A DNA stretch of 64,000 bases, taken from contig LCFP01000001.1 in NCBI GenBank assembly GCA_000999095.1, positions 205,680 through 269,679 on the forward strand, in the 5' to 3' direction. Every line of letters begins with the position of its first letter. Within the stretch, counting starts at the first letter, position 1. This DNA is from Candidatus Gottesmanbacteria bacterium GW2011_GWA2_43_14. Lineage in GTDB: Bacteria; Patescibacteriota; Microgenomatia; 2-02-FULL-39-11. This document shows, piece after piece, positions 8,496-32,267 of this stretch. The notes beneath the pieces were generated by a model. The model had not been told where the DNA came from. It ran no database searches and saw only the letters and a list, made by a program, of their open reading frames with translations. The position numbers were made by a program, and so were the translations under genes.

Positions 8496-8516
8496 AATTT
8501 GATTATAATACGAATC

Positions 8517-9032
8517 ATGAAACTATTCTTTAAAATCTTGCATAAAAGATTCTGGACAAGAAATATAATTTTAGTCTGTACACTCTTGGTTTTAACTTCA
8601 ATTCTTATGTATTTGAATCAACCTAAACAATATAGTTTTCTTCCGAAATTTAAAGGCATGGTTTCTGACACGGATAAAACTATTCAAATTTTCGGTCTGA
8701 GGTATTCTTCATACCTGTCCGGCAATTCATCCCCGGCAGAATTTAAAGAGGCTCTTATTAACTTTCAGGATGATTTGATTAGCCTTAATGAAGGATTGGA
8801 GAATTTAAAGCCTAATAAGGAACACCAGGAGCTATACAAACAATACCTGACTGGAATCAGTCTGGTAAAAGGTGTGGTCAAATACAACCTTGAAAACCTG
8901 ACTGATGAAATCCTTGATGCTGATTTAGTGGAGGAAGAACAGGTAAAAATGGAAACAGGATTAAATTTAATTCAACTTACTAAGGAAAAACTAGGGATAG
9001 AATCAACTTCTCAGCCAGAAAGCTTAATTTAA
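8517..9032 (+). CDS. membrane-anchored hypothetical protein
   Basis: N-terminal TM helix (NIILVCTLLVLTSILMYL) followed by a hydrophilic domain. The start is probably the internal MKLFF. Confidence 0.4.
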   Translation: MKLFFKILHKRFWTRNIILVCTLLVLTSILMYLNQPKQYSFLPKFKGMVSDTDKTIQIFGLRYSSYLSGNSSPAEFKEALINFQDDLISLNEGLENLKPNKEHQELYKQYLTGISLVKGVVKYNLENLTDEILDADLVEEEQVKMETGLNLIQLTKEKLGIESTSQPESLI

Positions 9033-9043
9033 GTATTCATGAG

Positions 9044-9697
9044 GTGGTAATATTTAATTATATGGAAATCTTTAAGTCTATACTTAGTTTTATATCTGCT
9101 ATGTTTATTGGAGTCTTCGGATTTATCAATCCTGTCATTAAAATAGCTCCCACACCAACTTTACCACTTTCAATTGGTAATACTTCTGTATCACCTTTAA
9201 TACCTACCACCAATGAGTTTAACTCTAAACCTGTTGATCGTGGAGATGTAATTGGAATAATGGGGAATACAGGAAACGCTTCTAGACCAAAACTACATTT
9301 TGCGGTTTACAATTTAAATGAATCAGATTTGAACAAGTTTAACGCTGATGTCGGACATTTAAACCCTTTTAATTTTCTTCGAAATAAGAAATTATTTTTT
9401 GATTCTGATTCCTGTCACGATGTGAGTAAAAAAATTGAAAAATCAGTCGGAACTGGAAATTGGGATTGGCCAATGTCTAATCCAATAATTTCACAATGTT
9501 ATGGAAATACTCAATTGTCATTAAATAATCCTGATGAAATTAATAATGGAATTGATATGTATGATGATGTCGATACGCTTGTGCGGGCGGTTGAAAACGG
9601 AAATAAATATGTTTATCGTGGCGGAGCTTCTGAAGGAAATGGGGTATTAATTTTTCACTCTGACGGTAAAATGAGTCTTTATTGGCACCTTCAATAA
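9044..9697 (+). CDS. circularly permuted, degenerate M23/LytM-domain protein (signal-anchored). Paralog of the EnvC-like protein at 26640.
   Basis: GDVIGIMGNTGNASRPKLHFAVY precedes GNWDWPMSNP...INNGIDMYDD...SLYWHLQ-stop. The HxH motif is reduced to KLHF and the HxxxD motif to NNGID, so two metal ligands are lost. Confidence 0.6.
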   Translation: MVIFNYMEIFKSILSFISAMFIGVFGFINPVIKIAPTPTLPLSIGNTSVSPLIPTTNEFNSKPVDRGDVIGIMGNTGNASRPKLHFAVYNLNESDLNKFNADVGHLNPFNFLRNKKLFFDSDSCHDVSKKIEKSVGTGNWDWPMSNPIISQCYGNTQLSLNNPDEINNGIDMYDDVDTLVRAVENGNKYVYRGGASEGNGVLIFHSDGKMSLYWHLQ

Positions 9698-9826: not shown

Positions 9827-10432
9827 ATGTATAGCCTATATAAAATATGTACTATTTTATTAACTGCCTCTTTGGCAGTTTTTTTATACTTTTCGCCAGT
9901 TGAAGCAAAACAAGGGTGTTGTTCTAGTCATGGGGGAGTTAATTGTGATGCTGGAGCGCAATCTAATGGTCTAGTAATCTGTAATGATGGCTGGAGGGGA
10001 TCTTCTTGTTTATATTCAGAAATGGTAATGTGTGGTGGTTCATCGAGTAATTCTATAAATATTGCACCTATAAAAGATCAACCAATTCAAATATTACCTT
10101 CATCAACTCCGACTATTAAGAGAATTTATCCAACCTGGACACCAAAGCCCCAACCTACCTTAATCCCTTCTGCAACTTTAACTCCTGATTCAACAAGTAC
10201 TCCATATCCAACATATACTCCTTACCCTACTTATACACCTGTTCAGATGATCTCAGAATATCCTAAACCTTCAGGTTCTATACAGGGTGTTTCAACAGAT
10301 TCTAATACAGCTTCAGGAGATTTTTTTATCGGTTTACTGCTTGTAGGGCTGGCCTGGATTTTTAGAGGTAAAATTAAATGGATATTGAGCTCTCAAGGGA
10401 AATCTGATCAAGAATTACCTCCACAAAAATAG
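9827..10432 (+). CDS. Cys-rich secreted surface protein with Pro/Thr/Tyr linker and C-terminal TM anchor
   Basis: Signal peptide, then a CCSSHGGVNCDAG...C...C...C module. The linker contains PYPTYTPYPTYTP. The C-terminus is hydrophobic (FFIGLLLVGLAWIF). Confidence 0.55.
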   Translation: MYSLYKICTILLTASLAVFLYFSPVEAKQGCCSSHGGVNCDAGAQSNGLVICNDGWRGSSCLYSEMVMCGGSSSNSINIAPIKDQPIQILPSSTPTIKRIYPTWTPKPQPTLIPSATLTPDSTSTPYPTYTPYPTYTPVQMISEYPKPSGSIQGVSTDSNTASGDFFIGLLLVGLAWIFRGKIKWILSSQGKSDQELPPQK

Positions 10433-25291: not shown

Positions 25292-25789
25292 ATGGTATTT
25301 TATACCATGAATATACGGCCGGCCACTACTGATGACCTGGAAGGCATTGTCGCCCTGACTGAGGATCTGCTGGAAAACCACCTTGAATACGATCTGGAGT
25401 ATTTCGAATTGGCCGAGAGCCACAGACTCTATCTGGAAGATTGGGTTAAATACCACCTGGGTTCAACCAGTCAATTCATATTTGTCTCCGAAATAACTGC
25501 ATCCGGTAAAAAACCGGTTCTGACAGGTTATATTTCCGGCTATATTAAGCCTCTTTTCCCCTGGTTTAAGATAAAACAGGTCGGGCACCTTTCGTTTCTG
25601 GCTGTTGATAAACGATGGAGGAGGAAAGGAGTCGGAAATCTGTTGGAAGAAAAAGCCTCACTCTGGTTTAAGGAAAAAGACATAAAATATATTGAGGTTT
25701 ATACCAATGAAAAGAATTTCCCCGGACTGTCAGCCTGGACTTCATACGGCTACAAACCCTTTAACCGCTTCCTGCGCAAAAGCCTGTAG
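25292..25789 (+). CDS. GNAT-family N-acetyltransferase
   Basis: LAVDKRWRRKGVGNLLEE is the acetyl-CoA-binding motif (R/Q-x-x-G-x-G/A). Confidence 0.7.
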   Translation: MVFYTMNIRPATTDDLEGIVALTEDLLENHLEYDLEYFELAESHRLYLEDWVKYHLGSTSQFIFVSEITASGKKPVLTGYISGYIKPLFPWFKIKQVGHLSFLAVDKRWRRKGVGNLLEEKASLWFKEKDIKYIEVYTNEKNFPGLSAWTSYGYKPFNRFLRKSL

Positions 25790-26508
25790 CTTAGTGCGGC
25801 TGCCAGAAAAAATGACAGGATAGCAGGCAATAGAAACAAAAAAAGTGTCGGCTTGACCGGCTCTGATGAAATTCCCGCTACACTGGCTTCAGAAAATGAA
25901 GTAACCGCGTTTGCCGATCCCGTTGCTGTGGCTGTAACAATCTTAGTCGGCGTAATTTTGACTTTTACAGTAATTGTCGGGGACGGCATACTTAAAGTAG
26001 ACAAAGGTTTACCGGTATTGGTTGCTGCCGGTTTTTCGGTGGCGGCAGTTTTAGTCTTGCCTGGTACCGCAGTCGCCATAGGAGCGGTAGTCGGAGTCTT
26101 CGTTGGCAGGGCAACAACTACTTTCAGGGGAGATTGCCCGTCATCGGCTGAACTGCCGGATTCCGTATACCTGATGATTTTAAAAAGATATTCACCCGAT
26201 TCGCGGCAATCGGAGTCTTCAGGATCAATCCTGGCTTTAATTTCCGTTTTGGCTGAGCCGGAAGCGATGGTTACCGGTAACAATTGCTTCCAGCCGTCAG
26301 CTGAAGAATAGGGACCCTTAAACCAGGATTGTCCGTTCCAGGTATAGCCGCAATATTTGGCAGTGCCTTCCTTAAAAAAAGCTCCCCTTAAATAATAAAG
26401 AGTCCCGTCACTGCTGTTTATCTGAAGTTCACAAGTTGCAGTGAATTCCTGATCGCTCCGGTTTATTTCACTTGTGTCCGGTCCGCTTAAAATGATGTCT
26501 GCCATCAA
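25750..26508 (-). CDS. hypothetical surface protein with Thr/Pro/Ala-rich linker and C-terminal TM anchor + basic tail
   Basis: C-terminus FSEASVAGISSEPVKPTLFLFLLPAILSFFLAAALSYRLLRRKRLKGL. The N-terminal boundary is uncertain. Confidence 0.4.
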   Translation of the reverse strand: MMADIILSGPDTSEINRSDQEFTATCELQINSSDGTLYYLRGAFFKEGTAKYCGYTWNGQSWFKGPYSSADGWKQLLPVTIASGSAKTEIKARIDPEDSDCRESGEYLFKIIRYTESGSSADDGQSPLKVVVALPTKTPTTAPMATAVPGKTKTAATEKPAATNTGKPLSTLSMPSPTITVKVKITPTKIVTATATGSANAVTSFSEASVAGISSEPVKPTLFLFLLPAILSFFLAAALSYRLLRRKRLKGL

Positions 26509-26639: not shown

Positions 26640-27866
26640 CTATTGCAAGTGCCAGTAGAGGGTCATTTTGCCGTTTTCATGGAAGATAAAAACACCGTTG
26701 CCTGCCGATTGTCCGCCGCGGTATACGTATTTATTGCCGCCTTCAACAGACTTGATTAAAGTGTTTTTGTCGTCATACATATCGACTCCGTTGTGGATGC
26801 CGGACTGGTAACGCCAGGACCAGGGAGTATGGCCGTAACACTGGGAAATTGACGGACTATCCATCGGCCAGTCCCAGGACCCGGAGCCGATCGACTTTGA
26901 GGTTCTCTGGTCGGGCGAGACGTCGTCGCAGGCGGTTGCCTCGAAGCCCAACTCCCTGGATTTCAACAGGTTAAACGGATTCTCATAACCGCTGTTGAAA
27001 TTGAACTTATTCAAATCAGCTTCGTTCAGGTTGTATACAGCAAAATGCAGATGGGCACCGGTAGAAAACCCTGTGTTCCCCATGATGCCGATGACATCGC
27101 CTTTATTGATTTTGGTTGGTACCCCGGCCTGGGACAGAAGTGATGCAGCGCGCTGGATGCCTTCGGCTTCCCTCCTGGCCGCATCAAGTTCCTGGCGGTA
27201 GCGGGACTCGCTGCTTCTGGTAGTCTCCAAAAACAGCTCTTTTTCTTTTTTCTGCACCGCCAGGGTATTTTGTTCTTTTTCCAGCTGTTTTTTTGCCTGG
27301 TCAAGCTCCACTTTTTTATCTTCACGCTGCTGTTTCTGGTCTTTAAAATTTTCCTTGCTGTTCTGGAGCTGAAACAGCAGTTTTCTGTCATGCGCCTGGA
27401 CTTTCTGCATGTATTTGAAGCGGTTGACGAAATCGGAAAAACCGTTGGAAGAAAGAACCATAGTCAGATAGGATTTTTCCCCCAGCCTGTAGGTAGCGGC
27501 AATCCGGTCCAAAAGGACCTGGGAAATTTTTGTCAAAGAAGATTCCAGGCTGTCGATTTTTTCGGAAATCGTATCAATATCTTTTTCAATTTGCGCAATC
27601 TTACCCCTGGTAGCATCAATTTTCGCCGTAGTCAGCTGAATTGAAGTCGTCAGGTAAACAATTTGAGCTGCCATGTTCTGCCTTTGGGCGGAACAGACAT
27701 TGACGATGTCAGTATAACAGCTGACGCGTTCATTGGCCTCTGATTTATCTTTGCAGGGATCGTCGTTCGGACAGACAGACAATCCGTACACGCTCAAAGG
27801 AGTTAAAACCAGGTATATAAATACGACCGATAAGATCCTGAAAAGTTGAGTGGTTATTCTGGACAT
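26640..27866 (-). CDS. EnvC-like cell-division murein hydrolase / activator: signal-anchor, about 200-aa coiled coil, circularly permuted M23 (LytM) domain with intact metal ligands
   Basis: Heptad-rich KIAQIEKDIDTISEKIDSLESSLTK...QELDAARREAEGIQRA. Then KGDVIGIMGNTGFSTGAHLHFAVY (canonical C-terminal M23 block with HxH). Then WDWPM...QCYGH...HNGVDMYDD...GKMTLYWHLQ-stop (canonical N-terminal block with HxxxD and the YxHL histidine). It lies immediately downstream of ftsX. Confidence 0.75.
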   Translation of the reverse strand: MSRITTQLFRILSVVFIYLVLTPLSVYGLSVCPNDDPCKDKSEANERVSCYTDIVNVCSAQRQNMAAQIVYLTTSIQLTTAKIDATRGKIAQIEKDIDTISEKIDSLESSLTKISQVLLDRIAATYRLGEKSYLTMVLSSNGFSDFVNRFKYMQKVQAHDRKLLFQLQNSKENFKDQKQQREDKKVELDQAKKQLEKEQNTLAVQKKEKELFLETTRSSESRYRQELDAARREAEGIQRAASLLSQAGVPTKINKGDVIGIMGNTGFSTGAHLHFAVYNLNEADLNKFNFNSGYENPFNLLKSRELGFEATACDDVSPDQRTSKSIGSGSWDWPMDSPSISQCYGHTPWSWRYQSGIHNGVDMYDDKNTLIKSVEGGNKYVYRGGQSAGNGVFIFHENGKMTLYWHLQ

Positions 27867-27873
27867 CTTTAGG

Positions 27874-28782
27874 TTAATCGTTAAGATACCTGCTTGATGC
27901 AAACAGGCTGCCGACAAAACCTATACCCAATCCGCAAGCAACAAGCAGCAGATAGAGAAGCAGGAACAAAGTCAGGTTTAAAGGCCAGATCAACAAAGTG
28001 AAACTGCCGGCAGATACAAGTTTTAAACTGCCGACACCTTTGAGAAATGAATCGGCATAAGGCTCAAGATAAAGCATCAGGAAAAAACTGATGACAAAAG
28101 CCATGGTGGCGCCTGCCAAACCGTAAAGTAGACCTTCTTTGATAAAAGGTTTTTTTATATACCAGTTGGTAGCACCGACCAGTCTGAGAATTTCGATTTC
28201 TTCCTTTTTATTGGCAATTTTCATGCTGACGGAAGTCAGCAGTATGAAAAAAGTCGACAGGATGAGAAAAAATACAAAAATAAAACCTACTTTACGGACG
28301 GTAGATGCCCAAACAATTAAGGTATCCACTACTTCCTTCTGAAAGACGACGTCCTCCACTCCTGGTTCCGAACGCACTGACTGGTATATCTCATCCAAAT
28401 ACTTTGGAGAAGTGGCTGAAACATCCAGTGAAGCAGGCAGGATGTCGGCTGTCACCATTTCCAAAAGCAAAGGGTCATCCTTGTTCTGCTCACGGTAAAT
28501 AGCCAGTGCTTCTTCCTTGGAAACGTACTTCGTGGAAAGGACTTTATCCGTGCTTTTAAGCTTTTCCGCAAATTTATCTATCGATGCCTTATCCTTGTCG
28601 TTGGAGAAAAAAACGGTTAATTGGGGCTTGGATTCGAAATAACCGACCAAAGCACTTGACGATGCAACCAGGAGCAGGAACAAACCCAACACAAACAGGG
28701 TGATGAACATCATAAACAACGAAGCCACAGTCTGATACGGCGTCCTTCTTAATCTCTGCCAAACCGAAATGGTCGAATACAT
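27874..28782 (-). CDS. ftsX: cell division permease-like protein FtsX
   Basis: Four TM segments, large extracellular loop after TM1. IEILRLVGATNWYIKKPFIKEG conserved FtsX block. Directly downstream of ftsE. Confidence 0.8.
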   Translation of the reverse strand: MYSTISVWQRLRRTPYQTVASLFMMFITLFVLGLFLLLVASSSALVGYFESKPQLTVFFSNDKDKASIDKFAEKLKSTDKVLSTKYVSKEEALAIYREQNKDDPLLLEMVTADILPASLDVSATSPKYLDEIYQSVRSEPGVEDVVFQKEVVDTLIVWASTVRKVGFIFVFFLILSTFFILLTSVSMKIANKKEEIEILRLVGATNWYIKKPFIKEGLLYGLAGATMAFVISFFLMLYLEPYADSFLKGVGSLKLVSAGSFTLLIWPLNLTLFLLLYLLLVACGLGIGFVGSLFASSRYLND

Positions 28783-28784
28783 AC

Positions 28785-29459
28785 TTATGAATACTTGCTT
28801 TTTTTCTGGTCCCTGATTATTTTGCCTTTGCTTATTTCGATCACTCTTTTTTTCATGCTGTTGACTATATCAACGTTATGGGATGCCATTATGACCGTTT
28901 TGCCCTGTTTGTTTATCTCAGTGATTATTTTAAGTATATCCCAGGATGTTTTCGGGTCCAGGTTGCCCGTCGGTTCATCAGCCAGGAGGATTTCCGTTTC
29001 GCCGGCGACTGCCCGGCCGATGGCTACTCTCTGCTGTTCACCCAGGGATAATTGTTTGGGGAAAAAATTGGCCTTTTCGGTCAAAAGTACTATATTCAGC
29101 ACTTCCCTGATTCTCTTGTCGATGTCGGCGGACTGCCTGTCCAAAATTTCCAGGGAAACGGCAACATTTTCTGCCACAGTACGGTCATTTAATAATTTAA
29201 AATCCTGGAAAACGAAACCGACTTTACGTCTGAGAAAGGGTACTCTTGATTTGGGTAACTTATTTACTTCCAGGTCGCTGACAAAGACAGAGCCTGATGA
29301 AGGCAGTAATTCCCGGTCAATCAGGCGGAGAATTGTGGTTTTGCCTGCTCCCGAGGAACCGACCAGGAAAACAAACTCCCCCTTGTCGATTTTGAAATTG
29401 ATATCCTCGACAGCAGTAGATTTACCGTATCTTTTGCTGACATTATCAAATAGGATCAT
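28785..29459 (-). CDS. ftsE: cell division ATP-binding protein FtsE
   Basis: Walker A GSSGAGKTT, ABC signature LSLGEQQRVAIGRA, Walker B ILLADEPTGNLD. 224 aa. Confidence 0.9.
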   Translation of the reverse strand: MILFDNVSKRYGKSTAVEDINFKIDKGEFVFLVGSSGAGKTTILRLIDRELLPSSGSVFVSDLEVNKLPKSRVPFLRRKVGFVFQDFKLLNDRTVAENVAVSLEILDRQSADIDKRIREVLNIVLLTEKANFFPKQLSLGEQQRVAIGRAVAGETEILLADEPTGNLDPKTSWDILKIITEINKQGKTVIMASHNVDIVNSMKKRVIEISKGKIIRDQKKSKYS

Positions 29460-29920
29460 CTGACAACTTCTACCTTACCGACGTCCATCAGCCAGCCGGC
29501 GGTTTGAGCGGCAAACGTCTCTCCCCAAACTTTTACCTGTTTACCTTCGAATTTCGAAAGATCCAAAACTGAAGATGTTAAAGCTACAGTCTGACTTTCC
29601 CCGCCCGGACGCTTCAACTGGTGGGTGCCCTCCCCGTCAACGCCTCCGGCGGAAAGTGTTCCTTCGGCACTGTCTTTAAATGTTTTACTGTCGGCCGAAC
29701 CGGCTATCTCAGTCTGGTCCGATCCGTCACCAAACAATCCTTCTCCTGTAGAGATTTTATTTGAGGATAGGCCGGACAAAAAGTAACCGCTGAGAACACC
29801 GGACATGACGAGGACAACTCCGAATGCAATGATTTTGTAAAAGGTTTTATTTGAATCCATTTGGTGCACCAGGGGGCGCCCGGAGTAATCTTTTACCGAT
29901 ATATTGTTTGAATCTGACAT
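29456..29920 (-). CDS. membrane-anchored hypothetical protein
   Basis: Single TM (FYKIIAFGVVLVMSGVLSGYFL) plus a Gly/Ser-rich ectodomain. ATGA-type overlap with ftsE. Confidence 0.4.
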   Translation of the reverse strand: MSDSNNISVKDYSGRPLVHQMDSNKTFYKIIAFGVVLVMSGVLSGYFLSGLSSNKISTGEGLFGDGSDQTEIAGSADSKTFKDSAEGTLSAGGVDGEGTHQLKRPGGESQTVALTSSVLDLSKFEGKQVKVWGETFAAQTAGWLMDVGKVEVVR

Positions 29921-29928
29921 AATCCTAA

Positions 29929-30945
29929 CTATACGACAGTTGAGAATTTTTTCAAGTAAGCAGTCAAAAATGGCTCGATATGACCATCTAAAACGCTTTT
30001 ACTGTCGGACGTCTCGTGCCCGGTACGCAAATCCTTTACCATGTGGTAAGGATGCAAAACATATGAGCGGATTTGATTGCCCCAGGAGGCCAGTTTAAAT
30101 TTTCCTTTAAGGTCGGACAGGTGCTTCACCTTTTCCTGTTCCATCAATTGCCAAAGCTTACCCCGCAAAAGTTTCAGGGCTGTTTCCCGGTTCTGGCCCT
30201 GGTAACGCTGTTCCTGGCATTCAACAATGATTCCGGTCGGTTTATGTTTCAGTCTGACAGCAGTTGACACCTTGTTGACGTTTTGGCCGCCTTTGCCTCC
30301 TGAACGGAAAAAGTCCCATTCCAAATCATCTTCCTTAATCTCAACTTCCTGGTTATTCTCAATTACCGGGATTACCTCAACCAGGGCAAATGAAGTCTGC
30401 CTCAGTTTATCGGCATTAAAAGGCGACTGACGTACCAGACGGTGGGCTCCCGACTCTCCTTTCAGATATCCGTAGGCTAAAAATTCGGGCACGGTAATGG
30501 TCACGCTTTTGATGCCGGCTTCGTCGCCTCCGACCTCGTCTACCAGTTCAAAATGCCAGCCTTTGGATTCAATATACCTCAGATACATACGCATCAGCAT
30601 TTCAGCCCAGTCCATGGCTTCTGTTCCTCCCTGGCCGGCATGGATAGACAGGATGGCTCCCTCGGTATCATGGGGTCCGGAGAAAAACAGGTCGAACTCC
30701 AGCTTCTCCATTTTATCGCGGGCCGATTGAGAATCGCCGGATGCAATCAGCTGGGCAATTTCTTCGACAGACTTGATCTGTTTGGTTAAAACAGCCAGTT
30801 CTTTCATCACTGCCGTTGATTTTTCACGGTCAGACCAAAAAGCGGGATCAGCGGAAGACGTCTCGATTTCAGCCACCCTCCGTTTTTTTTCTTCTATTTT
30901 GAGTTTGCCGGAAAGCTCCGACAGGCGTGTTTCTTCAGCGGTCAT
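29929..30945 (-). CDS. prfB: peptide chain release factor 2
   Basis: SPF motif ([17 protein letters not shown]), GGQ ([14 protein letters not shown]), RF2-type domain order. The start is probably MTAEETRL (30945) rather than the ORF-track start at 30996. There is no in-frame UGA or CTT-TGA-C shifty site, so no programmed +1 frameshift. Confidence 0.8.
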
Positions 30946-30955
30946 GGAAGTAATT

Positions 30956-30964
30956 AGTATACCA
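30956..30964 (-). promoter_or_regulatory. candidate extended -10 element TGGTATACT upstream of prfB (would give a near-leaderless mRNA)
   Basis: TGnTATACT sits 10 nt upstream of the MTAEE ATG. An identical TGGTATACT is found 18 nt upstream of the 21095 start (21068..21076, plus strand). Confidence 0.25.
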
Positions 30965-30974
30965 TAAAATGAGG

Positions 30975-32267
30975 CTAGAAAAGATAACTGACCCAATCGG
31001 CCAATTGGCCATCTGTCACAGCCTCCATTTTAGTTTCGATCCTCCCCCATTCTTCACTGTTGCGGCCCGGAGGCATAGGTAAATATATCAATTCATTCCC
31101 AGCCAGTTTTTCCCAGGCATAATCGCGGCGGGCTTTTTTATATTTTTTGCCCTGATATTTGTAGACGGCAAATTCATTCTCAATTTTAAGATTGTTTATT
31201 AAATCGCGATTCCGCAGACTCAATTGGGTGCCCATAATTGCTTCATCACCCGGGGGCGGTAATGGTAAATCAAGACCGGAAAATTCGGCAAAATGGTAAG
31301 CCAAAAGCGGAATACGGCCTACAGCTCTTTCCAGATAACTGTAAAAGGAAGACGAAGCCGTCAAACGGGGATTGATTTCCGACAAACTCACTTTGCCTGA
31401 ATTTTTTTCTACAAAAAAATCCAATCCGAAAAATCCCCGGAAACCCAACTTACTGATTATTTTAGCTGTTGTTTCTGAAATTTCTTTAATTGCTTTAATT
31501 TGTTCCTCCGTAAGCTGTGATGCCGGCCATTGCCGGCCGCAGGTGGCAGCAGGGTTGGACGACAACAGGGCAAAACCATTTATCTGTATCGCCGGCGGCC
31601 CAATCAATAACCGGCCTCGGTAAAGGCAACAGTTGTTTAAAAAAGTTAAGGCATCAATTTTCCTGGTAATTCTGACTTTGGTTTCGGGAAAACGGTTTTT
31701 AAGCTTATTGAATTGCGCCCCTGTGTCAATAAAAAAAGTATTTTTGCCTGCCCATCCGAAGGCGAATTGAACCGTCAAAGGCAATCCGAACTTAGCTTCC
31801 AAGCGGGCGAAATTAAACTCCGACAGGCTGCCTGTTTCGGAATCCAGCAAATATTGCTCAAACCCGGCCAAAAGGACCGGCAGGTTAAGTTTGCTTTCCA
31901 ATTCCCTGTTTAATTCCGCTACGGTTCCGATTATCCCGTAGCCTTTTTTCCGGATTATCATTTCGGTTTTTAATGAAGGCTTAAAAAAAGCAATCTGCGG
32001 CTTATTGCCGCCTTTTTCAGCCAGGTAACGGGCAACCTGCGGATGGTCCAAGAGCCGGCCGGAATTATTCGGAAGTATCGCTTCCCCAGTCTCCTCCCCA
32101 AGGCAAAAAATCCGGACTCCTTTTTTTCTCAAAACCGGAATTAGCTCATCACGGAAGCTGACAATCAAATGATACTGCGGCAGCAGGTCTTCCAGACCCA
32201 AACCTCTTTTGATATCGGGCGTGACAAAAAAAATCGGCTTGTTAAATTTTTGCTGCCATTTATCCAT
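30975..32267 (-). CDS. ATP-grasp superfamily ligase, unknown substrate
   Basis: The C-terminal half carries ATP-grasp blocks: [36 protein letters not shown] (E-x-N-x-R). The N-terminal 200 aa match no domain I recognise. Confidence 0.55.

What the first reader, a model, noticed from the sequence alone, without database searches (positions are those of the whole stretch)
26640..29459. ftsE-ftsX-envC-like operon in which the EnvC-like M23/LytM domain is circularly permuted but retains all metal ligands
The canonical M23 order is W.WP...HxxxD...Y.HL...G..IG.VG.TG.STG.HLHFE. In the 26640 protein it is reversed. KGDVIGIMGNTGFSTGAHLHFAVY (the HxH block) comes first. About 60 residues later the protein has WDWPM...HNGVDMYDD...GKMTLYWHLQ and ends exactly after the YxHL histidine. 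The domain therefore appears to be cut between the YxHL strand and the G..IG strand, with the C-terminal piece moved to the front. A second gene (9044..9697) has the same permuted order and also ends YWHLQ. That argues against an assembly artefact and suggests a conserved family. The protein also has the classic EnvC build (signal anchor + about 200-aa coiled coil) and sits directly after ftsE-ftsX, the ABC system that regulates EnvC-type factors. Unlike E. coli EnvC, whose LytM domain is degenerate, this one keeps HxxxD, HxH and the catalytic His. It could be an FtsEX-controlled active hydrolase (RipC/PcsB-like logic) built on a rearranged fold. I am not aware of a described circularly permuted M23 family.
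Basis: partly seen in the sequence, partly recalled or inferred. Interest (0 to 1): 0.75.

Follow-up and report, generated by a model that had tools for sequence, protein, structure and literature searches.

The report
Circularly permuted M23 peptidase partnered with FtsEX
In this Candidatus Gottesmanbacteria genome, and across the related Microgenomates group of bacteria, the cell-wall-cutting protein encoded next to the division transporter FtsEX has an M23 zinc-peptidase domain whose two halves are in swapped order but whose catalytic residues are all kept, a rearrangement I found described nowhere.

Summary
The gene at 26640-27866 (-) encodes 408 aa; the listed ORF extends to 27917. It lies directly after ftsE and ftsX. 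It has an N-terminal hydrophobic helix, a coiled-coil hairpin of about 200 aa and a C-terminal M23 domain. In that domain the HxH block (H272, H274) comes before HxxxD (H358, D362), and the protein ends two residues after the catalytic His (H406). PDB and Pfam alignments map the two halves in swapped order. Joining the C-terminus back to the start of the domain restores one collinear M23 match.

Best reading: an FtsEX-controlled, catalytically competent peptidoglycan hydrolase (PcsB/RipC logic) built on a permuted M23 fold. Activity, FtsX binding and the 3D position of the swapped half remain untested. I rate it a new variant of a known kind.

The parts
28785..29459 (-). ftsE, the ABC ATPase (224 aa)
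   Evidence: NCBIfam TIGR02673 FtsE scores 266.4 bits against a cut-off of 264.85, and Pfam ABC_tran has E 1.7e-31. It is conserved upstream of the permuted M23 gene in 62 related loci.
27874..28782 (-). ftsX, the permease-like protein with an extracellular domain (302 aa)
   Evidence: Pfam FtsX_ECD has E 9.8e-18 and FtsX has E 1.5e-14. The NCBIfam FtsX models score 184-186 bits, below their equivalog cut-offs. It lies directly upstream on the same strand in 68 of 73 informative loci.
26640..27866 (-). Gene for the coiled-coil plus permuted M23 protein (408 aa plus stop). The mechanical ORF extends to a TTG at 27917.
   Evidence: The 408-aa product is identical to KKS98703.1 / UniRef A0A0G1GIW1 of a Candidatus Gottesmanbacteria bacterium. 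The full-length AF2 model has pLDDT 92.8 and pTM 0.77.
27804..27863 (-). N-terminal hydrophobic helix (aa 2-21), either a signal peptide or a membrane anchor
   Evidence: The sequence is SRITTQLFRILSVVFIYLVL. AF2 predicts a helix at residues 2-21. Whether it is cleaved was not determined.
27126..27737 (-). Coiled-coil region (aa 44-247): helix 44-59, long helices 65-129 and 143-216, then helix 220-247, which runs straight into the catalytic domain
26958..27128 (-). M23 'C-half', placed first (aa 247-303): G..IG.MGNTGFSTGAHLHF with H272 and H274, followed by the native C-terminal tail
   Evidence: It aligns to the last third of canonical M23 chains, for example 6muk residues 324-349, and to Pfam profile positions 61-90. 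H272 and H274 are invariant in 66 full-length relatives.
26889..26957 (-). Family-specific linker (aa 304-326, RELGFEATACDDVSPDQRTSKSI) joining what are the C- and N-termini in a canonical M23 domain
   Evidence: It has no counterpart in canonical M23 alignments. AF2 predicts it as structured, with strands. Its Cys313 co-occurs with Cys343 of the N-half: both are present in 56 relatives and only one is present in 7, which suggests a disulfide.
26643..26888 (-). M23 'N-half', placed last (aa 327-408): WDWP, Y353, H358-x3-D362, and YWH406LQ followed by the stop codon
9062..9697 (+). Short paralogue (211 aa) with a hydrophobic N-terminus plus the same permuted M23 module, with a degenerate active site (KLH at 9290-9298, NNGID at 9542-9556)
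   Evidence: It is 57% identical to the FtsEX-linked domain and equals KKS98683.1.
29456..29920 (-). 154-aa single-pass membrane protein overlapping the ftsE start by 4 nt; a possible extra member of the operon
   Evidence: tblastn finds it directly upstream of ftsE in 58 of 80 related loci. It has no Pfam family above cut-off. Its role is untested.

Best explanation
The gene after ftsE-ftsX encodes the extracytoplasmic partner of the FtsEX division complex in this Gottesmanbacteria genome. It has an N-terminal anchor or signal, an antiparallel coiled-coil hairpin whose conserved tip would dock on the FtsX extracellular domains, a third helix, and a zinc M23 peptidase domain. That domain is a circular permutant. 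The canonical chain is cut in the loop after the YxHL histidine. The HxH-bearing piece is moved to the front and fused directly to the coiled coil. The original C- and N-termini are joined by a conserved linker of about 23 residues, probably disulfide-pinned.

Because all catalytic residues are under strict conservation, the domain most likely folds into the normal M23 sheet and cleaves peptidoglycan peptides itself. FtsE ATPase cycles would be transmitted through FtsX and the coiled coil to switch it on at the septum, as for PcsB, RipC and CwlO. This differs from E. coli EnvC, which only activates amidases.

The permutation probably arose from a tandem M23-M23 ancestor by loss of the outer half-domains.

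Shown here: the swapped order, the family, the synteny, the residue conservation and the confident fold prediction. Inferred: zinc binding, hydrolysis, FtsX docking, regulation and the evolutionary route.
For: Swapped order:
- It is seen in PDB and Pfam alignments.
- Re-joining the ends gives one collinear M23 match with a 2-residue gap and a 10^5-fold better E-value.

Family:
- 136 of 177 collected relatives have C-half before N-half by half-domain HMMs.
- 86 representatives score E <= 1e-30 in a 1.84-billion-protein library.
- 107 species-representative genomes encode a relative, mostly Gottesmanbacteria, Levybacteria, Collierbacteria, Shapirobacteria and WWE3.

Synteny:
- ftsX lies directly upstream in 68 of 73 informative loci, and ftsE plus ftsX in 62.

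Active site:
- H272, H274, H358, D362 and H406 are invariant in 66 full-length proteins at about 30% identity, and Y353 is conserved in at least 90%.
- 138 of 139 long forms read HHHDH at the five catalytic positions.
- The roles of these residues are as described in the M23 review PMC9662197.

Fold:
- The AF2 domain model has pLDDT 89.6 and pTM 0.87; the full-length model has pLDDT 92.8.

Coiled coil:
- Pfam CC_PcsB has E 1.5e-10 and the NCBIfam EnvC coiled-coil part has E 2.7e-10.

Other points:
- Natural tandem M23-M23 proteins exist, and the permuted profile aligns across their C1-linker-N2 junction.
- The logic of FtsEX partners is taken from the review PMC11627006.
Against: - No enzymatic, zinc-binding or FtsX-binding data exist.
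- I had no model coordinates, so I could not check that the relocated half sits in its canonical 3D position or that the five residues converge on one site.
- Five loci carry the coiled-coil permuted protein without ftsEX within 6 kb.
- NCBIfam EnvC and PcsB scores are far below their equivalog cut-offs.
- The tandem proteins are not shown to be the actual ancestors.
Confidence: 0.72

Rival explanations
1. The protein is an EnvC-type regulator rather than an enzyme. In this reading the permuted domain is a binding groove that activates another hydrolase, such as an amidase, and FtsEX controls access to that groove.
For: - The closest structural and profile matches of the whole protein are EnvC.
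- LytM-type domains often work as activators (PMC9662197; PMC11627006).
- A helix (aa 220-247) precedes the domain, in the position of EnvC's restraining arm.
Against: - EnvC lacks the zinc ligands. Here all five catalytic residues and the oxyanion Tyr are invariant or nearly so across 66 proteins at about 30% identity, and in 138 of 139 long forms.
- The same genome has a separate degenerate short paralogue, which is a better candidate for a regulator.
Confidence: 0.13
2. The two half-domains do not fold within one chain. Instead they complement between chains in a domain-swapped dimer or oligomer, so the active site is built only when two coiled-coil proteins meet.
For: - Some FtsEX partners and M23 proteins act as dimers: PcsB forms a dimer in crystals and Csd1-Csd2 form a heterodimer.
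- The chain break lies next to the active site.
Against: - The monomer AF2 model is confident throughout, including the linker (pLDDT 89.6, no segment below 50).
- The linker is conserved and carries a co-varying Cys pair with the N-half.
- The module also occurs alone in short proteins and at the end of 1,100-1,250-aa proteins.
Confidence: 0.06
3. The swapped order is an artefact of assembly, frameshift or gene calling in one metagenome-assembled genome.
For: The source is a metagenome-assembled genome.
Against: - The same order and the same C-terminal end occur in 80 of 80 fetched loci from independent assemblies, and in 136 protein clusters.
- No continuation of the domain follows the stop codon; the next ORF starts about 130 nt further on.
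Confidence: 0.01

Closest known systems
EnvC (E. coli, V. cholerae, P. aeruginosa), the FtsEX-bound coiled-coil LytM factor
   Same: - The gene follows or is functionally tied to ftsEX.
- It has an N-terminal export signal, a long two-helix coiled-coil hairpin and a further helix before a C-terminal M23/LytM domain.
   Different: - The EnvC LytM domain has the canonical order and lacks the zinc ligands, and it only activates the amidases AmiA and AmiB.
- Here the domain is permuted and keeps every catalytic residue.
- The NCBIfam EnvC score is 39.8 against a cut-off of 270.
PcsB (Streptococcus pneumoniae), and RipC (Mycobacterium) / CwlO (Bacillus subtilis)
   Same: - These are FtsEX partners in monoderm bacteria in which the coiled-coil protein is itself the hydrolase and is auto-inhibited until FtsEX acts.
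- The Pfam PcsB coiled-coil domain matches with E 1.5e-10.
   Different: Their catalytic domains are CHAP or NlpC/P60 cysteine peptidases, not a zinc M23 domain.
Canonical M23 peptidases (LytM, lysostaphin, MepM/ShyA, NMB0315 / PDB 3slu)
   Same: - They share the motifs (Tyr, HxxxD, YxH, HxH) and the Pfam family, with 20-31% identity over the aligned halves.
   Different: - The sequence order of the halves differs: here it is HxH ... HxxxD ... His-COOH.
- The termini lie at the loop after the YxHL strand.
- A conserved linker of about 23 residues closes the original termini.
Circularly permuted NlpC/P60 families (YaeF/poxvirus G6R and LRAT-like)
   Same: They are a precedent for a peptidoglycan-hydrolase superfamily that contains natural circular permutants with swapped catalytic residues (PMC6403190).
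   Different: They have an unrelated fold and chemistry (a Cys-His papain-like fold) and are not FtsEX partners.
Natural tandem M23-M23 proteins (for example P0106, P0114, P0124, P0177)
   Same: The permuted profile aligns in one stretch across the C-half of the first domain, the inter-domain linker and the N-half of the second domain. This is the arrangement expected of a precursor in the duplication-and-truncation route to permutation.
   Different: They keep both complete domains and have no coiled coil, and their linkers lack the family's CDD motif. Ancestry is not shown.

Membership tests
Peptidase family M23 (Pfam PF01551 / MEROPS M23) | Profile match above the curated threshold | tested here: met
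   The score is 50.9 bits against a cut-off of 28.7, in two stretches. The re-joined sequence scores 61.3 bits in one stretch.
Peptidase family M23 (Pfam PF01551 / MEROPS M23) | The zinc and catalytic motifs H(x)nD and HxH, plus the additional catalytic His and the oxyanion Tyr (as defined in PMC9662197) | tested here: met
   H358-NGV-D362, H272-L-H274, H406 and Y353 are present. The five His/Asp residues are invariant in 66 relatives and Y353 is conserved in at least 90%. For the paralogue at 9062-9697 the test is not met (KLH, NNGID).
Peptidase family M23 (Pfam PF01551 / MEROPS M23) | Canonical linear order: HxxxD, then the His about 30 residues before HxH, then HxH | tested here: not met
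   The order is HxH (272-274), HxxxD (358-362), His406. This is the permutation.
Peptidase family M23 (Pfam PF01551 / MEROPS M23) | The M23 beta-sheet core with the active-site residues converging on one zinc site | tested here: inconclusive
Peptidase family M23 (Pfam PF01551 / MEROPS M23) | Zinc-dependent cleavage of peptidoglycan peptide bonds | not testable with these tools
   This needs biochemistry.
FtsEX-coupled coiled-coil cell-wall factors (EnvC / PcsB / RipC / CwlO class) | Genetic linkage to ftsE-ftsX | tested here: met
   In the window the gene starts 8 nt after the ftsX stop. In related genomes 68 of 73 informative loci show the linkage.
FtsEX-coupled coiled-coil cell-wall factors (EnvC / PcsB / RipC / CwlO class) | An exported protein with a long antiparallel two-helix coiled coil N-terminal to the catalytic or regulatory domain | tested here: met
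   AF2 predicts helices at 65-129 and 143-216, with a hydrophobic helix at 2-21. CC_PcsB has E 1.5e-10. The EnvC coiled-coil profile has E 2.7e-10.
FtsEX-coupled coiled-coil cell-wall factors (EnvC / PcsB / RipC / CwlO class) | Physical binding of the hairpin tip to the FtsX extracellular domain, and ATP-dependent activation | not testable with these tools
   FtsX here does have the extracellular domain (FtsX_ECD, E 9.8e-18). Binding itself was not tested.
EnvC sensu stricto (NCBIfam NF008644, murein hydrolase activator) | A full-length equivalog score and a degenerate LytM domain without zinc ligands | tested here: not met
   The score is 39.8 bits against a cut-off of 270, and only the coiled coil aligns. 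The zinc ligands are present.
PcsB (NCBIfam NF046104) | A C-terminal CHAP domain and an equivalog score | tested here: not met
   The score is 34.8 bits against a cut-off of 450, and there is no CHAP match in Pfam.

The most novel reading that the evidence does not exclude
The permutation may be functional rather than an evolutionary accident. It puts both chain ends at the rim of the active site. The FtsEX-driven helix (aa 220-247) is fused, through three residues, to the strand that leads into the Gly-rich loop and the HxH motif. The catalytic His406 sits on a free C-terminal strand two residues from the end. ATP-driven movement of the coiled coil could then directly assemble or distort the catalytic centre. 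That would be a way of gating a peptidoglycan hydrolase different from the plug-type 'restraining arm' of EnvC and the occlusion seen in PcsB and RipC. The degenerate short paralogue would be a separate permuted regulator.
Probability: 0.15. Interest if true: 0.8.

Novelty: new variant of a known kind. Interest (0 to 1): 0.6.

Why it matters
M23/LytM domains are among the most studied cell-wall hydrolases and regulators, and FtsEX partners are the model for how an ABC transporter controls an enzyme outside the membrane. A natural, widespread circular permutant raises several points.

- The M23 fold tolerates a chain break next to its active site. This is useful for engineering lysostaphin-like enzybiotics and for designing split or switchable versions.
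- It adds a fourth type of catalytic module (an intact M23) to the set of FtsEX-coupled hydrolases, after degenerate LytM, CHAP and NlpC/P60.
- The attachment point between the coiled coil and the enzyme differs from EnvC, so it can test how mechanical signals gate these enzymes.
- It marks a lineage-wide feature of cell division in Microgenomates (candidate phyla radiation), organisms with almost no experimental cell biology.
- Domain databases see these proteins only as two fragments of Peptidase_M23, and GenBank lists this one as hypothetical, so the family is currently under-described.

Tried and rejected
- **Model coordinates.** I looked in the sandbox for coordinates to run a permutation-aware superposition, but only FASTA files are provided.
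- **First genome scan.** A 9-sequence alignment worked, but its two search patterns are family-specific. The taxonomic range found is therefore a lower bound, biased towards close relatives.
- **Coiled-coil search.** A homologue search with the coiled coil alone, meant to find canonical-order sister proteins, returned only 6 close relatives. Whether sister candidate-phyla-radiation classes have canonical-order FtsEX partners stays open.
- **Regex reading of catalytic residues** was unreliable, so I replaced it with hmmalign columns.
- **Literature searches** for 'permut' with EnvC, lysostaphin/M23 and LytM returned only irrelevant papers or the known NlpC/P60 permutants. A search for 'duplicated hybrid motif' with LytM found nothing, so I do not use the idea that the cut falls between two internal repeats of the fold.
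- **Assembly artefact** was considered and rejected.
Full report
**What is in the window.** Three consecutive genes lie on the minus strand.
- ftsE is at 28785-29459. NCBIfam FtsE scores 266.4 bits, above its cut-off.
- ftsX is at 27874-28782. It matches Pfam FtsX_ECD and the FtsX permease domain.
- A third ORF is listed as 26640-27917 (425 aa, TTG start).

The ATG at 27866, 8 nt after the ftsX stop, gives a 408-aa product. That product is identical to GenBank KKS98703.1 ('hypothetical protein UV73_C0001G0224', Candidatus Gottesmanbacteria bacterium). UniRef names it A0A0G1GIW1, 'PcsB coiled-coil domain-containing protein'. Residue numbers below refer to this 408-aa form. The window GC content is 42%.

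**The permutation is real.**
- Pfam finds Peptidase_M23 above threshold, but in two stretches. The upstream stretch maps to the end of the profile, positions 61-90 of 96.
- In phmmer against PDB, ORF residues 356-424 (SISQC...IHNGVDM...LYWHL) align to residues 247-315 of the M23 peptidase 6muk. ORF residues 269-294 (KINKGDVIGIMGNTGFSTGAHLHFAV) align to residues 324-349 of the same chain. The same pattern holds for 3slu, 9gy1 and 5j1l.
- The second gene (9044-9697) behaves the same way against DipM, zoocin A and 3slu.
- As a direct test I joined the C-terminus (...YWHLQ) to the beginning of the domain (AGVPTKINKGD...). This artificial sequence gives a single collinear alignment to canonical M23 structures, with only a 2-residue gap across the junction. 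The best E-value improves from 1.4e-5 to 1.4e-10. Pfam then gives one stretch covering positions 2-90 of 96 at 61.3 bits, against two stretches at 54.1 bits for the native order.

The canonical C-terminal tail (...HLHFAVY...NPFNLLKS) is joined to the canonical N-terminus (GSGSWDWP...) by a linker of about 23 residues (RELGFEATACDDVSPDQRTSKSI). This linker has no counterpart in canonical M23 domains.

**It is a conserved family, not an accident.**
- A first homologue search returned 22 proteins with the same order, all ending ...LY[WL]HLQ or a close variant.
- An exhaustive HMMER search with the family profile against 1.84 billion representatives gave 86 hits at E <= 1e-30.
- I built separate HMMs for the two halves. 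With these, 136 of the 177 proteins collected have the order C-half then N-half, 3 are canonical, and about 27 are natural tandem M23-M23(-M23) proteins.
- A scan of one genome per species found 107 genomes encoding a relative. I examined 80 loci. The records that carry a specific name are Gottesmanbacteria (closest, 85% identity), Microgenomates, Levybacteria, Collierbacteria, Shapirobacteria and WWE3. Many other records carry generic or evidently wrong titles.
- In nearly all 80 loci the ORF stops 0-2 residues after the His of Y[WL]H[LMV].
- The permuted module also occurs in short anchored proteins and at the C-terminus of 1,100-1,250-aa proteins that have no other Pfam domain. It therefore behaves as an autonomous module.

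**Linkage to FtsEX.** By tblastn with the window's proteins, ftsX lies directly upstream on the same strand in 68 of the 73 loci that have enough upstream sequence. Both ftsE and ftsX are present in 62. Five loci (L042, L049, L050, L053, L057) carry the coiled-coil permuted protein without ftsEX within 6 kb. The wider conserved order is prfB, a 154-aa membrane protein, ftsE, ftsX, the permuted M23 gene, then in some genomes a 252-aa protein, then tsaE.

**Active site.** The M23 review defines the catalytic apparatus as follows (PMC9662197):
- H(x)nD and the second His of HxH are the zinc ligands.
- The first His of HxH and a further His about 30 residues upstream activate the water molecule.
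- A Tyr stabilises the oxyanion.

In an alignment of 66 full-length relatives, at about 30% identity to the window protein, H272, H274, H358, D362 and H406 are invariant. Y353 is conserved in at least 90% of sequences. Reading the five His/Asp columns from an hmmalign of 190 proteins, 138 of 139 long (coiled-coil) permuted forms are HHHDH. This is the signature of an enzyme, unlike E. coli EnvC, whose LytM domain lacks the ligands (PMC11627006).

The window's second gene is different. Its pattern is K-H-N-D-H: KLH replaces HLH and NNGID replaces HNGVD. There is also no Tyr in the stretch just before NNGID; this I read from the sequence and did not check in an alignment. Close short relatives are also degenerate in various ways: P0004 is QHNDH and P0003 is HHHDQ. 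The short paralogue is 57% identical in the domain and looks like a recent, non-catalytic offshoot.

**Structure predictions.**
- The domain (aa 238-408) modelled with 19 sequences gives mean pLDDT 89.6 and pTM 0.87, with no segment below 50. The linker is predicted to contain strands.
- The full-length protein modelled with 66 sequences gives pLDDT 92.8 and pTM 0.77. It has a hydrophobic helix at 2-21, a helix at 44-59, two long helices at 65-129 and 143-216, and a third helix at 220-247. The beta-rich domain starts three residues later, at 251.
- Foldseek against PDB found nothing significant for the domain.
- I could not obtain coordinates. The 3D placement of the relocated half and the convergence of the catalytic residues are therefore predicted, not verified.
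- A co-varying Cys pair adds support. Cys313 in the linker and Cys343 in the N-half are both present in 56 relatives, and only one is present in 7. A sub-group that lacks both carries a different Cys pair. This suggests a disulfide that pins the linker to the domain.

**How it most likely works.** Known FtsEX partners are coiled-coil proteins whose hairpin tip binds the two FtsX extracellular domains. ATP binding by FtsE compresses the coiled coil and releases an auto-inhibited C-terminal module. That module is either a regulator (the EnvC LytM domain, which then activates amidases) or the hydrolase itself (PcsB CHAP, RipC/CwlO NlpC/P60) (PMC11627006).

The window protein has the same build.
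- Its most conserved coiled-coil stretch lies around the hairpin tip, and this is the stretch that matches Pfam CC_PcsB.
- Its FtsX has the extracellular domain.
- Its catalytic residues are intact.

I therefore read it as the septal peptidoglycan endopeptidase of these monoderm-like bacteria. It would be directly switched by FtsEX in the PcsB/RipC manner, but with an M23 module.

The consequence of the permutation is that the coiled coil enters the domain at the strand leading to the HxH motif, and the chain ends on the strand bearing the catalytic His406. Both new ends are thus next to the active site, whereas in EnvC the coiled coil joins the distal N-terminus of the LytM domain. Whether this is exploited for gating is speculation; it is the novel case, at about 15%.

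**Origin.** The usual route to circular permutation is tandem duplication followed by loss of the outer halves. Natural tandem M23-M23 proteins exist, and the permuted-family profile aligns in one stretch across their C1-linker-N2 junction. This makes the route plausible but does not show ancestry.

**Comparison with what is known, and novelty.** No paper in the searchable library describes a permuted M23 or LytM domain. The dedicated 2022 review of the family does not contain the word 'permut'. Circular permutants are known in the unrelated NlpC/P60 hydrolase superfamily (PMC6403190). Public annotations of these proteins read 'hypothetical protein', 'Peptidase M23 domain-containing protein' or 'peptidoglycan DD-metalloendopeptidase family protein'.

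The system (FtsEX plus a coiled-coil wall hydrolase) and the enzyme family (M23) are both known. The new elements are the rearranged topology, its lineage-wide conservation as the FtsEX partner, and an intact M23 module in that role. I rate it a new variant of a known kind, with interest 0.6. The literature check is limited to open-access text, so an earlier description elsewhere cannot be excluded.

Noticed in passing
window 29456-29920 (-): A 154-aa protein with one predicted membrane helix overlaps the ftsE start by 4 nt. It has no Pfam family above cut-off, yet it lies directly upstream of ftsE in 58 of 80 related loci, after prfB. It could be an extra FtsEX cofactor, comparable to SweCD or SteAB in other bacteria.
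   Followed up: partly
window 9062-9697 (+): The short paralogue of the permuted M23 module has lost the first His of HxH (now Lys) and the His of HxxxD (now Asn), and there is no Tyr in the stretch just before NNGID. Related short forms are degenerate at other positions, for example P0003 with YWQLQ and P0004 with QLH/NNGID. These look like permuted versions of non-catalytic LytM factors. Its neighbours at 8499-9032 and 9827-10432 have no Pfam match.
   Followed up: partly
window 25750-26508 (-): A 252-aa protein lies just downstream of the permuted M23 gene. It has a Thr/Pro/Ala-rich stretch and a C-terminal hydrophobic anchor and has no Pfam match. Relatives occupy the same position in about 20 of the 27 related loci that have a match.
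   Followed up: no
window 27717-27782 (-), aa 29-50 of the 408-aa protein: A four-cysteine segment (VCPNDDPCKDKSEANERVSCYTDIVNVC) lies between the N-terminal hydrophobic helix and the coiled coil. It recurs in close relatives (L005, L013, L020, L021) but not family-wide. It may form two disulfides at the base of the coiled coil.
   Followed up: no
P0088 (1118 aa), P0134 (1256 aa): Very large proteins carry the permuted M23 module at their extreme C-terminus and have no other Pfam domain. Their origin and context were not examined.
   Followed up: no
P0026 (155 aa, from a 934-nt contig): This fragment starts ...YAHL, then has a C-half (GDVVGIMGNTGFSTGAHLHF), then an N-half-like stretch (FHPAFDL...GYGNYIII). 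It is either a piece of a tandem M23 protein or a different permuted variant.
   Followed up: no
loci L004, L005, L010, L012, L014, L018 and many others: Many species-representative assemblies titled 'uncultured Gammaproteobacteria' or 'Pseudomonadales', and one titled 'Clostridia', carry this locus at 60-81% protein identity to Gottesmanbacteria, with the same prfB-ftsEX synteny. The record titles look like placeholder or wrong taxonomy.
   Followed up: no
window 29929-30996 (-): The release factor gene prfB (Pfam PCRF plus RF-1 domains) is read as one uninterrupted ORF with a TTG start and an N-terminal extension of about 17 residues. I did not check whether the usual programmed +1 frameshift site of RF2 genes is absent.
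   Followed up: no
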